From the human T2T-CHM13v2.0 reference genome, Homo sapiens: DNA of 64,000 nt. The notes beneath the pieces were generated by a model. That model did not search any database. It was not told the DNA's origin and saw only the letters and a program-made list of their open reading frames with translations. The position numbers and the translations under genes were made by a program. The DNA is taken from NCBI RefSeq assembly GCF_009914755.1, contig NC_060943.1; one strand, 5' to 3'. Below, one piece after another: positions 11,970 through 13,632 of this stretch. The first letter of the stretch is position 1, and each line of letters begins with the position of its first letter.

Positions 11970-12382
11970 ATACTGAGATAACCCTCCACTGGTGAACCTG
12001 GAGGAAGATCCATCCTGTAGGAGGTGAGAGCCTGGGAAAGGACATCACTATGGAGGGAACTGAAGTTGGGGTGGAGGTCGGTGGATGGGGTATTGGAAGT
12101 GGCTTGAGACCAGGAGATGAGTTTAAAGTCCTCAGGTGCCTGTGGGTAAAGTTCTGACAAAGGAACCAGGAAGAAATAAGAGTCAGATGATGAAAAGGAT
12201 CAGGACTGGGGGAAAAAACAAGGACCCAACCTGGTGATCGGGATTAAACAATTATTCTGGGCAGGCAAGGGCAAGAAATAGATAATAAACTGGAAAAAGA
12301 AATCGCTGGTGTAGGAGGGATATCAGCTGAGAAGAGTTGGTCCAAGGCTCTTGGTCTACACTCCACATCCTGTGGGGTGCAC
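11970..12382 (-). pseudogene. Tentative further MAN2B1-like exon remnants
   Basis: ccaccag|GTGCAC (VH..., then GCGV, cf. VHRRLLKDDGRGVS) starts at 12382. Acceptor-like ttttttcccccag near 12205. tcctttcccag near 12031 is followed by SYRMD...FLQVHQWR (cf. PYQLD...FLASVQWK). Heavily deleted. Confidence 0.35.
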
Positions 12383-12621
12383 CTGGTGGGCAACTAGGAG
12401 AGAAGAAGGGCCCGACGTCCAGTAAGGGAATCAGAATGTGAATGCCGTATTGCTGTGGGGAAGGATCACAGGCCACCTGGAGCCACCTAAGTGAAAACCA
12501 GGGTCAGTGCCTGGGGATGGAAGGATCTGAATGGAAACTCACTTAAGGCCAGGTGGGGTGACCTGAGTAGCAAACAGGTAAAAGTTGGGTAGGAGGACCT
12601 GATTTGGATGGGGCTGCTCAC

Positions 12622-13632
12622 TGTGATGTCTATGAAGCTATCATTCCAGCTGCTGTCCACCTAGGAGCAGTTGGTCAGTACAGTCAGCTGCGTGTTCCCA
12701 TCTTGTGTATGAGGGCAGTACTGAAGGCTGCCCTTCATGCCTGCCTTGATCACTGGCAGGAGACAGAGGACGTGGAAGTATGGGTTGTTTGGGGGGATGG
12801 TGCCTATGAGGAAGGTCTGATCCCAAATCTAGAGAATGGGAGGGTGGGATGTATCATGGAGGGTCAGGCCGGGGGTCTGGAGGATATCATGTCCTAAATG
12901 CAGATGTTCTCTGGGTCTCAGGTCCCTGCTACCAGCCCAGCCTGGTGAGGCTCCAGATGAGTCAACCCTGGCTCAGGAGAGCTGGTGTAGGATCTGTTAG
13001 GCCAAGGGGTCTGGCTTCCTTACTACCTCCCACTTCTACCTCTGTAGAAATGTCTGTCTCCAGCATCATGTCAAAGCAACTGATGACTTCCCTACCCCAG
13101 GCATCACTGAGCTAAACTGGGTGGCAGGAAGGTGATCACCACCTAAGTACTATCTTTTTTTTTATTTTTTATTTTGAGACAGAGTCTCACTGTGTTGCCC
13201 AGGCTGGAGTGTAGTGGCTCCATCTTGGCTCACTGCAAGCTCCACCTCCCAGGTTCACGCCATTCTCCTGCCTCAGCCTCCCGAGTAGCTGGGACTATAG
13301 GCGCCCGCCACCATGCCTGGCTAATTTTTTGTATTTTTAGTAGAGACGGGGTTTCACCATGTTAGCCAGGATGGTCTCGATCTCCTGACCTCGTGATCCA
13401 CCTGCCTCGGCCTCTCAAAGTGCTGGGATTACAGGTGTGAGCCACTGTGCCTGGCCCACCCAAGTAGTATCTTATCCCTTCTCTCCTTTTCATCCCAGCC
13501 TGTGCCCACTGATCGCTTGGTTACCGGTCCCATTATCCACTCCAGCTCCTGGTACTTCTCTTCTGGGTACAGCTGAACCACCTGGGAAGAGCAAGCTAAG
13601 AAGTTCTGGTGCCCCCCTTGCAGCAAGGCTAT
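12622..13632 (-). pseudogene. Unprocessed relic of a lysosomal alpha-mannosidase (MAN2B1-like, GH38 C-terminal region), four collinear exons
   Basis: 13632-13514 (119 bp) reads [38 protein letters not shown], vs recalled MAN2B1 [38 protein letters not shown]. 13106-13034 reads DAWGREVISCFDMMLET...FY, vs [22 protein letters not shown]. About 12967-12888 reads IWSL/QAGLVAGT*DPENICI*DM, vs [24 protein letters not shown]. 12702-12622 (81 bp) reads DGNTQLTVLTNCS*VDSSWNDSFIDIT|gtgag, vs [27 protein letters not shown]. Stops, deletions and broken splice sites are present. Confidence 0.85.
13153..13456 (-). mobile_element. AluY-like element within a MAN2B1-like intron
   Basis: Full Alu with TSD-like cacc(t/c)aagta(c/g)tatct on both sides. 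Confidence 0.9.

What the first reader, a model, noticed from the sequence alone, without database searches (positions are those of the whole stretch)
11970..13632. Hidden intron-containing lysosomal alpha-mannosidase (MAN2B1-like) gene fossil inside a KRAB-ZNF cluster
Seen: four minus-strand segments, in order and separated by short introns, translate to consecutive parts of the MAN2B1 C-terminal region (HQNF..SQVV.LYP....ELEW..GP; D.WG.EVIS.FD..LET; LVAG..P.N..I; DGN.QLTVLT). Two keep discrete exon-like lengths (119 and 81 bp). One acceptor (ctcag| at 13106) and one donor (|gtgag at 12621) survive, while others are mutated (ctg, caa, atcagt, atatcc). The ORF track shows only one exon, fused to Alu sequence, so it is easily missed. 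Recalled: the real MAN2B1 sits at the far end of this 19p13 ZNF cluster, tail-to-tail with a plus-strand ZNF. Inference: this is a DNA-level duplicate, not a retrocopy. It either hitch-hiked with an ancient ZNF+MAN2B1 duplication, since the same tail-to-tail layout appears here, or is a once-functional second mannosidase lost in this lineage. I do not recall an annotated pseudogene here.
Basis: partly seen in the sequence, partly recalled or inferred. Interest (0 to 1): 0.85.

Follow-up and report, generated by a model that had tools for sequence, protein, structure and literature searches.

The report
Dead MAN2B1 gene fragment beside ZNF833P
A decayed, unannotated copy of four exons and their introns from the lysosomal alpha-mannosidase gene MAN2B1 lies upstream of a zinc-finger pseudogene; it is an ordinary relic of old DNA duplication, not a hidden gene.

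Summary
Window 12563-13748 (minus strand) is collinear with MAN2B1 exons 17-20 plus parts of introns 16-20. Blastn gives E 3e-29, 4e-8 and 3e-13. Exon 19 was reached by 0 of 500 shuffles. tblastn gives E 8e-8. Exon equivalents are 13632-13514 (119 bp), 13106-13044 (63 of 102), 12972-12888 (85 of 88) and 12702-12622 (81).

Retained introns show a DNA-level, unprocessed partial pseudogene. It carries four stops, four deletions and lost splice sites. No other MAN2B1 exon was found.

New here: a second copy lies at chr19:11715633-11717305, 7.9 kb upstream of ZNF627. It is 81-85% identical in the exon 17 block and shares disabling lesions. The ZNF627 locus is collinear with fossil plus ZNF833P in the window. 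So the fragment died first, then was copied head-to-head with a ZNF gene.

RefSeq lists no MAN2B1 pseudogene. Interest is low to moderate.

The parts
13633..13748 (-). Remnant of the 3' end of MAN2B1 intron 16. The acceptor is mutated from CAG to CTG.
   Evidence: It is part of the 260-bp blastn block (E 3e-29). It is 60.8% identical to MAN2B1 and 82.7% identical to fossil A. Both fossils share the acceptor change. MAN2B1 carries a repeat insertion just beyond this point, so the true upstream limit cannot be seen.
13514..13632 (-). Equivalent of MAN2B1 exon 17 (aa 683-722). It is 119 bp with no indel and no stop. The donor GT is changed to TC.
   Evidence: E 8e-8; 75.6% DNA identity to MAN2B1. 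The length equals exon 17.
13107..13513 (-). Intron 17 remnant. It is 407 bp, of which 317 bp (13146-13462) is an Alu inserted later. The remaining 90 bp compare with 89 bp in MAN2B1.
   Evidence: Masked-repeat list, alignment and MAN2B1 exon coordinates. The Alu is absent from fossil A and from MAN2B1 at this site. The name Alu comes from my reading of the sequence.
13044..13106 (-). Equivalent of MAN2B1 exon 18, 63 of 102 bp. The acceptor AG is kept. There is a 4-bp deletion, and a 35-bp deletion removes the 3' end.
   Evidence: (E 3.6e-8). Fossil A keeps 101 bp of this exon.
12973..13043 (-). What is left of intron 18, about 71 bp. MAN2B1 has 483 bp here including a 317-bp Alu.
   Evidence: Three-way alignment and coordinates.
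12888..12972 (-). Equivalent of MAN2B1 exon 19, 85 of 88 bp. It has 2-bp and 1-bp deletions, three in-frame stops at codons 760, 775 and 783, and a lost donor.
   Evidence: Local alignment score 25, reached by 0 of 500 shuffles.. The 1-bp deletion and the TGA at codon 760 are shared with fossil A.
12703..12887 (-). Intron 19 remnant, 185 bp against 124 bp in MAN2B1. The acceptor before exon 20 is changed from CAG to CAA.
   Evidence: Identity to MAN2B1 is only 46%, so the alignment is weak here.
12622..12702 (-). Equivalent of MAN2B1 exon 20 (aa 786-812), 81 bp with no indel. It has one stop (TAG at codon 799). The donor GTGAG is kept at 12621.
   Evidence: E 2.5e-13; 72.8%.
12563..12621 (-). 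First ~60 bp of intron 20. Homology to MAN2B1 ends at about 12587 and homology to fossil A ends at about 12563. This is the left edge of the duplicon.
   Evidence: and (A-versus-B local score 26, reached by 0 of 200 shuffles, ending at 12563).
13749..34391 (+). The rest of the duplicon that carries the fossil: upstream region and body of ZNF833P (22168-34739). It is collinear with the region from fossil A to the last exon of ZNF627. The HNRNPA1P10 retrocopy (13907-15260) is a later insertion.
   Evidence: 14 collinear same-strand blastn blocks between chr19:11715708-11746171 and window 12660-34324. Gene positions are from the RefSeq annotation.

Best explanation
Window 12563-13748 is a non-functional, unprocessed partial pseudogene of MAN2B1.

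Shown:
- About 0.87 kb of genomic MAN2B1 DNA (end of intron 16, exons 17-20, introns 17-19, start of intron 20) is present, plus a later 317-bp Alu.
- A sister copy lies 7.9 kb upstream of ZNF627. Both copies sit at the left edge of paralogous duplicons that continue through a whole KRAB-ZNF gene (ZNF627 and ZNF833P).
- The two copies share disabling lesions.

Inferred:
- The fragment was copied at the DNA level from the parent gene at the other end of the 19p13.2 KRAB-ZNF cluster. It came to lie about 8 kb upstream of, and head-to-head with, an ancestral ZNF gene.
- It was already dead when that ZNF unit was duplicated. That duplication produced the window copy (B, upstream of ZNF833P) and its sister (A, upstream of ZNF627).
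- It encodes nothing and does nothing as a mannosidase. It has since decayed neutrally.
- The original copying was roughly twice as old as the A/B split. Both events pre-date the Alu insertions in the copies.

Not resolved: how the first copy arose. It could have been a large tandem duplication later trimmed, or a small fragment captured at a duplication junction.
For: Similarity to the parent:
- Collinear, same-strand matches to four consecutive MAN2B1 exons.
- MAN2B1 is the only other locus in the genome that matches, besides the sister copy (3 of 3 scored candidates; the top three hits at E<=5e-58, the remaining 20 of 23 at E>=0.44).

Intron retention:
- Blocks run across exon-intron boundaries.
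- In fossil A a single 468-bp block spans intron 16, exon 17, intron 17, exon 18 and intron 18 (E 1e-37). A 345-bp block spans exon 19, intron 19, exon 20 and intron 20.
- Intron 17 is 90 bp against 89 bp once the Alu is removed.

Death before duplication:
- A and B share the exon 17 acceptor AG to TG change, the exon 17 donor GT to TC change, a 1-bp deletion in exon 19 and a TGA at codon 760.

Co-duplication with a ZNF:
- 14 collinear blocks link fossil A plus ZNF627 to fossil B plus ZNF833P.

Neutral decay:
- dN/dS is 0.71 (M-B), 0.58 (M-A) and 0.83 (A-B).
- Differences from MAN2B1 by codon position are 29/36/34 for B and 32/27/34 for A.

Relative ages:
- Intron K2P distances are 0.76 and 0.73 to MAN2B1, against 0.35 between A and B.
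- No Alu is shared between the copies.
Against: - The fossil peptides do not reach any Pfam family at E<=10, although the real exon 17 peptide hits Glyco_hydro_38C at E 1e-7.
- The genome-wide PF07748 scan listed 11 matches and none was at the fossils. The identification therefore rests on pairwise and profile DNA similarity to MAN2B1.
- Intron identities to MAN2B1 (46-65%) are near saturation. Distances and ages from them are rough.
- The shared TGA at codon 760 is a CpG transition and could be parallel.
- Only 4 of 24 exons are present. The left end of MAN2B1 homology almost coincides with the left end of the A/B duplicon. A simple large-duplication-then-decay history does not predict this.
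- No other species could be examined.
Confidence: 0.85

Rival explanations
1. One ancient tandem duplication copied a plus-strand ZNF together with the 3' part of MAN2B1, lying tail-to-tail. The fossil would be the MAN2B1 end of that unit, with ZNF887P or its ancestor as the tail-to-tail partner. Exons 21-24 and the intergenic DNA were lost later.
For: - The layout ZNF887P(+), fossil(-), ZNF833P(+) is what a tandem duplication with its right breakpoint in MAN2B1 intron 16 would give.
- The parent locus is ZNF791(+) then MAN2B1(-).
- A ZNF 3'UTR-like element lies 1.9 kb from the 3' side of the fossil, in the expected orientation (window 10133-10617). It matches the ZNF791 3'UTR at 66-68%.
Against: - That element matches the ZNF709 3'UTR (69%) and window 58658-58961 (70%) equally well, so it is a cluster-wide ZNF 3' sequence.
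- The window has no other homology to the ZNF791-MAN2B1 intergenic 12.7 kb.
- Exons 21-24 are absent from both copies.
- Fossil A has no ZNF on its 3' side; GAPDHP76 and ACP5 lie there.
- A-B homology stops about 60 bp past exon 20.
Confidence: 0.25
2. The fossil is the last remnant of a complete second lysosomal alpha-mannosidase gene that was once functional and was lost in the human lineage.
For: - It cannot be excluded without other species.
- The exon 17 equivalent in B is still open over 119 bp.
- Exon distances to MAN2B1 (K2P 0.34-0.37) are lower than intron distances (0.73-0.76).
Against: - The lower exon distance is expected anyway, because the parent's exons are constrained.
- Neither copy has any trace of exons 1-16 or 21-24.
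- No third-codon-position excess was seen, and dN/dS is 0.58-0.83.
- The splice-site losses and the frameshift are shared by A and B, so they are old.
- No N-terminal catalytic domain is anywhere near.
Confidence: 0.07
3. The fragment, or at least its intron 16/exon 17 block, has been taken over as a regulatory or structural DNA element upstream of ZNF627 and ZNF833P. This does not exclude the pseudogene origin.
For: - That block is 81.3% identical between A and B over 358 bp.
- The other 13 collinear blocks of the duplicon are 62-78% identical, including the KRAB-exon block at 76.7%.
- Per part, the figures are 82.7% and 83.6%.
- Both copies keep the same distance, about 8 kb, from the ZNF start.
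Against: - RefSeq's functional-element tracks list no enhancer, silencer or promoter on either copy.
- ZNF833P is itself a pseudogene.
- Local gene conversion or a low local mutation rate would give the same picture.
- The sample is small.
Confidence: 0.1
4. It is a retrocopy of an unspliced or partly spliced MAN2B1 pre-mRNA, or a chance resemblance.
For: Only the short size of the fragment, about 0.9 kb.
Against: - All internal introns (17, 18, 19) and parts of both flanking introns are present.
- There is no poly(A) tract at the 3' edge (sequence at 12540-12620).
- E-values reach 3e-29 in the window and 1e-23 genome-wide.
- None of 500 shuffles reached the exon 19 score.
Confidence: 0.02

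Closest known systems
MAN2B1 (lysosomal alpha-mannosidase, GH38), chr19:12771019-12791240, minus strand: the parent gene
   Same: - Same strand and same exon order (17 to 20).
- Same exon boundaries, with lengths of 119 and 81 bp.
- Intron 17 has the same length.
- Exon DNA identity is 72-73%. Amino-acid identity in the parent's frame is 53 of 113 (B) and 61 of 111 (A).
   Different: - Only 4 of 24 exons are present, with no catalytic N-terminal part.
- It has 4 stops, 4 deletions and lost splice sites.
- There is no Pfam hit.
VN2R12P-VN2R16P and VN2R21P, annotated vomeronasal-receptor gene fragments in the same ZNF cluster
   Same: They are short dead fragments of an unrelated gene that recur at a fixed place next to paralogous ZNF genes. 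They were therefore carried along by ZNF unit duplication (five lie 1.2-2.5 kb after plus-strand ZNFs).
   Different: - They lie on the 3' side of the ZNFs, have six annotated copies and carry names.
- The MAN2B1 fragment lies about 8 kb on the 5' side, has two copies and is unannotated in RefSeq.
- None of the VN2R fragments is in this window.
- That they hitch-hiked is my inference from their positions.
IDSP1 and GBAP1, unprocessed pseudogenes of lysosomal enzyme genes
   Same: IDSP1 is likewise a partial DNA-level copy holding a few exons and introns of a lysosomal enzyme gene on the same chromosome arm (passages read in PMC9405548).
   Different: - Those are close to their parents and similar enough to recombine with them and cause disease alleles.
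- The MAN2B1 fossils are about 1 Mb away and 54-75% identical. I infer that this is too diverged to mis-map reads or to recombine.
HNRNPA1P10, the processed pseudogene next door (window 13907-15260)
   Same: It is a dead gene copy on the same strand, about 160 bp from the fossil.
   Different: It is an intronless retrocopy with a poly(A) tail. It was inserted after the A/B duplication, because it is absent from the ZNF627 copy. It shows what a retrocopy looks like, and the fossil does not look like one.

Membership tests
Unprocessed (duplicated) pseudogene of MAN2B1 | Significant, collinear, same-strand similarity to consecutive parent exons | tested here: met
   Four exons in order, with E down to 3e-29. 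None of 500 shuffles reached the score of the weakest exon.
Unprocessed (duplicated) pseudogene of MAN2B1 | Parent introns retained at the parent's positions | tested here: met
   Blocks cross the exon-intron boundaries. Intron 17 is 90 bp against 89 bp. Exon lengths are 119 and 81 bp.
Unprocessed (duplicated) pseudogene of MAN2B1 | Disabling lesions (stops, frameshifts, lost splice sites) | tested here: met
   B has 4 stops and 4 deletions; A has 5 stops and 7 indels; only 2 of the 8 splice sites are intact in B.
Processed pseudogene (retrocopy) | Introns removed, with a 3' poly(A) tract | tested here: not met
   Introns are present. There is no poly(A) tract at 12540-12620.
Glycoside hydrolase family 38, C-terminal domain (Pfam PF07748) | Profile match above the curated cut-off | tested here: not met
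   the fossil peptides (47 aa and 20 aa) matched 0 families at E<=10, while the real exon 17 peptide scored 32.9 bits (cut-off 25); 0 of 11 genome matches lie at the fossils.
Functional GH38 alpha-mannosidase gene | N-terminal catalytic domain and a full exon set | tested here: not met
   tblastn with the whole protein found no other part in the window or in chr19:11700001-11780000. Shuffle tests for exons 14-16 and 21-24 were negative.
Once-functional paralogue | A trace of purifying selection after duplication | tested here: inconclusive
   dN/dS is 0.58-0.83 and the codon-position counts are flat. This fits neutrality from birth, but only about 110 codons are available and there is no outgroup.
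Once-functional paralogue | An intact or longer orthologue at the syntenic site in other mammals | not testable with these tools
   No mammalian genomes other than this reference can be reached here.
Passenger of a KRAB-ZNF unit duplication | Same relative position and orientation in paralogous ZNF duplicons | tested here: met
   14 collinear blocks. The exon 17 equivalent lies 7.9 kb (A) and 8.5 kb (B, including the 1.35-kb retrocopy) upstream of the ZNF start.

The most novel reading that the evidence does not exclude
The two fragments could be the scar of the founding rearrangement of the 19p13.2 KRAB-ZNF cluster. One fossil sits at the ACP5 edge of the cluster and the intact MAN2B1 sits at the opposite edge. 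The fossil lies exactly at a duplicon boundary. On this reading the cluster grew between a broken-off piece of MAN2B1 and the gene itself. The fragment would then give a datable marker for the birth and first expansions of the cluster. Its best-kept block (intron 16/exon 17, 81-84% between copies) may have been retained as a boundary or regulatory element upstream of the ZNFs.
Probability: 0.15. Interest if true: 0.5.

Novelty: new member of a known kind. Interest (0 to 1): 0.27.

Why it matters
The practical value is small.
- It is a correct annotation for two unannotated relics in the T2T reference.
- I infer that, at 54-75% identity, they cannot disturb MAN2B1 diagnostics for alpha-mannosidosis.

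The evolutionary value is modest.
- The fragment is a unique-sequence tag. It shows that ZNF627 and ZNF833P descend from one unit that already carried it.
- It orders three events: fragment copied, fragment dead, ZNF unit duplicated.
- It could be used in other mammals to date the early growth of this KRAB-ZNF cluster.

Tried and rejected
- **More MAN2B1 exons.** tblastn with the whole protein against the window and against chr19:11700001-11780000 found nothing else. Masked blastn of the 27-kb gene region found nothing else. In shuffle tests for exons 14, 15, 16 and 21-24 against the flanks of both copies, the best cases were exon 22 versus the A flank (2 of 200 shuffles reached it) and exon 21 versus the B flank (8 of 200, and at the wrong place). 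None is convincing. A genome search with the exon 21-24 DNA found only the parent and a short match at chr19:58.45 Mb.
- **More copies.** The profile search scored only 150 of 32247 candidates. An nhmmer profile of the three-way alignment over 144 kb gave 6 hits, all inside the two fossils. No third copy turned up, and none lies upstream of ZNF887P. The rest of the cluster (11.84-12.75 Mb) was not scanned exhaustively.
- **A ZNF791-specific tail-to-tail partner.** Rejected as evidence.
- **An Alu shared by MAN2B1 and fossil A in intron 18.** Such an Alu would make the duplication young. The two Alus are 93% alike and in the same orientation, but they have different flanks and target-site duplications, so they inserted independently.
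- **Pfam membership of the fossil peptides.** None.
- **A VN2R fragment in the window.** None; the only hits came from an Alu in the flank of my query.
- **Print.** Seven searches found no description of a MAN2B1 pseudogene. I read only passages of PMC3921586 and PMC9405548 and otherwise saw search listings. Supplementary files, where pseudogene catalogues usually sit, were not opened. GENCODE and pseudogene databases could not be consulted.
- **Dating against speciation.** This was not possible. I could not obtain MAN2B1 orthologues, because the spliced protein cannot be handed to the word search, and no other mammalian genome is reachable.
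Full report
**Observation.** I took the coding exons of MAN2B1 (NM_000528.4, chr19:12771019-12791240, minus strand) from the RefSeq table. 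I fetched the locus and rebuilt the 1011-aa protein and its 24 coding exons. Exons 17-20 are 119, 102, 88 and 81 bp.
- tblastn of the protein against the window gave 22 HSPs at E<=10. Three are collinear on the minus strand inside the finding (E 8e-8, 0.011, 0.22). The other 19 are scattered with E>=0.22.
- Unmasked blastn was swamped by Alu matches.
- After masking annotated repeats, three collinear same-strand blocks stood out:
  - MAN2B1 12774590-12774839 with window 13493-13748 (68.1% of 260, E 3e-29)
  - 12774433-12774549 with 13023-13135 (E 3.6e-8)
  - 12773600-12773726 with 12587-12705 (E 2.5e-13)
- The exon 19 remnant escaped blastn. A local alignment scored 25 against 10.2 +/- 1.6 for shuffles, and 0 of 500 shuffles reached it.

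**Anatomy.** A three-way MAFFT alignment of MAN2B1, the window copy (B) and a second copy (A), with Alus cut out, gave the following exon equivalents in the window:

| Exon | Window | Length |
|---|---|---|
| 17 | 13632-13514 | 119 bp |
| 18 | 13106-13044 | 63 of 102 bp |
| 19 | 12972-12888 | 85 of 88 bp |
| 20 | 12702-12622 | 81 bp |

- The acceptor before 13106 and the donor at 12621 are intact.
- The exon 17 acceptor is CTG and its donor is TC. The exon 19 donor is AT. The exon 20 acceptor is CAA.
- Read in the parent's frame, B has stops at codons 760, 775, 783 and 799 and deletions of 4, 35, 2 and 1 bp.
- Amino-acid identity to MAN2B1 is 53 of 113 for B and 61 of 111 for A.
- The 90-aa ORF 13429-13701 runs from the exon 17 equivalent into the Alu at 13146-13462.

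**DNA-level copy, not a retrocopy.**
- The blocks cross exon-intron boundaries.
- In copy A one 468-bp block covers the intron 16 end, exon 17, intron 17, exon 18 and the intron 18 start (E 1e-37). A 345-bp block covers exon 19, intron 19, exon 20 and the intron 20 start (E 6e-15).
- Intron 17 in B is 407 bp, of which 317 are Alu. That leaves 90 bp against 89 in the parent.
- No poly(A) tract ends the fragment.

**Extent.**
- Homology to MAN2B1 stops at about 12587 and about 13748. At the upper end MAN2B1 itself has a repeat insertion, which hides the true limit.
- Exons 14-16 and 21-24 were not found in either copy.
- The stretch 11970-12562 of the finding has no MAN2B1 similarity.
- Window 11253-11741 is a dispersed repeat with at least 40 genomic copies.

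**A second copy and the duplicon.**
- A genome search with the exon 17 block found three loci: itself, chr19:11716963-11717237 (85% over 278 bases) and MAN2B1 (77% over 151 bases).
- I fetched chr19:11700001-11780000. Fourteen collinear same-strand blocks link chr19:11715708-11746171 with window 12660-34324. The first stretch is fossil A, about 8 kb of spacer and ZNF627. The second is fossil B, about 8 kb of spacer and ZNF833P.
- The exon 17 equivalents lie 7.9 kb (A) and 8.5 kb (B) upstream of the ZNF starts. The B distance includes the 1.35-kb HNRNPA1P10 retrocopy.
- A-B homology ends about 60 bp past exon 20, at window ~12563. The fossil therefore sits at the very edge of the duplicon.
- A and B share the two exon 17 splice-site changes, a 1-bp deletion in exon 19 and the TGA at codon 760. 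The fragment was therefore dead before the ZNF unit was duplicated.
- ZNF887P is a younger relative of ZNF833P (blocks of 72-86%). Its homology starts only about 1.5 kb upstream of the ZNF start and holds no fossil.

- MAN2B1(-) is indeed tail-to-tail with ZNF791(+), and the fossil(-) follows ZNF887P(+).
- I fetched the ZNF791 3' end and the intergenic DNA. The only non-repeat matches to the window were two 3'UTR pieces with window 10137-10427 (66-68%).
- The same window element matches the ZNF709 3'UTR and window 58658-58961 at 69-70%. It is therefore a family-wide ZNF 3' sequence.
- The tail-to-tail co-duplication is compatible with the data but not shown. The head-to-head co-duplication with ZNF833P/ZNF627 is shown.

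**Selection and age.**

| Measure | M-B | M-A | A-B |
|---|---|---|---|
| dN/dS | 0.71 | 0.58 | 0.83 |
| K2P, exons | 0.37 | 0.34 | 0.29 |
| K2P, introns | 0.76 | 0.73 | 0.35 |

- Differences from MAN2B1 by codon position are 29/36/34 for B and 32/27/34 for A. This is what a fragment that was neutral from birth, paired with a constrained parent, would give.
- With a three-point calculation of my own on the intron values, the first copying is about twice as deep as the A/B split.
- From memory, the human lineage has accumulated roughly 0.17 neutral substitutions per site since the human-mouse ancestor. On that figure the A/B split falls near the early placental radiation and the first copying well before it. 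This calibration is recalled, and the intron alignments are near saturation, so the dates are rough.
- No Alu is shared. The one suspicious pair (93% alike, in intron 18 of MAN2B1 and of A) has different flanks and target-site duplications.

**Family membership.** The real exon 17 peptide hits Pfam Glyco_hydro_38C (E 1e-7) and the fossil peptides hit nothing. A genome scan with that family found the five GH38 genes (11 matches) and none at the fossils. The fossil is a MAN2B1 derivative by descent. It is not a recognisable GH38 domain.

**Other copies, annotation and print.**
- A sequence-only profile found only A, B and MAN2B1. The next 20 of 23 hits had E>=0.44, and only 150 of 32247 candidates were scored.
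- An nhmmer profile over 144 kb gave 6 hits, all in the two fossils.
- RefSeq names 19 mannosidase-related genes and no MAN2B1 pseudogene. It lists no feature on either fossil.
- Seven paper searches found no description. A review of structural variants in lysosomal genes names pseudogenes for GBA and IDS but none for MAN2B1 in the passages I read.

**Comparison and verdict.**
- The closest analogues are the annotated VN2R fragments that recur beside ZNFs in this same cluster and partial unprocessed pseudogenes such as IDSP1.
- The finding is real and apparently unannotated. I extend it with a sister copy and an order of events.
- It is a new member of a well-known kind: a gene fragment carried in a segmental duplication.
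- Two things remain unexplained. The intron 16/exon 17 block is better kept between A and B (81-84%) than any other block of the duplicon (62-78%). The fossil also sits exactly at the duplicon edge. These two facts feed the bolder reading given in the section on the most novel reading.

**Limits.**
- No other species, GENCODE or epigenomic tracks could be consulted.
- Supplementary files were not opened.
- The cluster between 11.84 and 12.75 Mb was searched only through the genome tool's filtered first look.

Noticed in passing
chr19:11715633-11717305 (outside the window; loci L006, L009): A second MAN2B1 fossil (exons 17-20, minus strand) lies 7.9 kb upstream of ZNF627, next to GAPDHP76 and ACP5 at the edge of the ZNF cluster. 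It is also unannotated in RefSeq. It keeps exon 18 nearly whole (101 bp) but has lost 37 bp of exon 20.
   Followed up: yes
window 13493-13830 and chr19:11716951-11717305: The intron 16/exon 17 block is the best-conserved block between the two ZNF duplicons. It is 81.3% identical over 358 bp, against 62-78% for the other 13 blocks. Gene conversion, a low local mutation rate or constraint could explain this; which one is unresolved.
   Followed up: partly
window 10133-10617 (+), and window 58658-58961 and 59283-59348 (-): A ZNF 3'UTR-like element is related to the 3'UTRs of ZNF791 (66-68%) and ZNF709 (69%). It lies about 8.5 kb beyond the ZNF887P finger array. An inverted relative lies near the right end of the window.
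   Followed up: partly
window 42588-43533 (-), with further blocks at 39277-46000: An inverted copy of the ZNF promoter/first-exon region (66% of 768 bp to ZNF627, 74% of 955 bp to ZNF887P) coincides with the first exon of the lncRNA LOC124908072 (42969-43579, minus). The lncRNA seems to start from a relic ZNF promoter.
   Followed up: no
window 11253-11741: A dispersed repeat of about 490 bp has at least 40 copies on many chromosomes at 70-83% identity. It is not in the supplied masked-repeat list, so that list misses older repeats. I looked once only and gathered no copies.
   Followed up: no
window 1-1673: Zinc-finger-array homology to ZNF627 and ZNF833P runs on to about 1673, well past RefSeq's end of ZNF887P at window 336.
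   Followed up: no
chr19:11749087-12081684 (outside the window): The VN2R12P, 13P, 14P, 15P and 21P fragments each lie 1.2-2.5 kb after the 3' end of a plus-strand ZNF gene or ZNF pseudogene. This is another passenger fragment of the ZNF unit duplications. There is none in this window.
   Followed up: partly
MAN2B1 intron 18 (chr19:12773975-12774291) and fossil A (chr19:11716342-11716662): Two Alus are 93% alike, in the same orientation and at nearly the same alignment column. Their flanks and target-site duplications differ, so they are independent insertions into the same intron of parent and fossil.
   Followed up: yes
window 15672-15788, 16847-16960, 41471-41593 and other Alus: MAN2B1 aa 799-856 gives repeated weak tblastn hits (E 1.9-9.5) to translated Alu sequence. 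I take these as chance or compositional and unrelated to the fossil.
   Followed up: no
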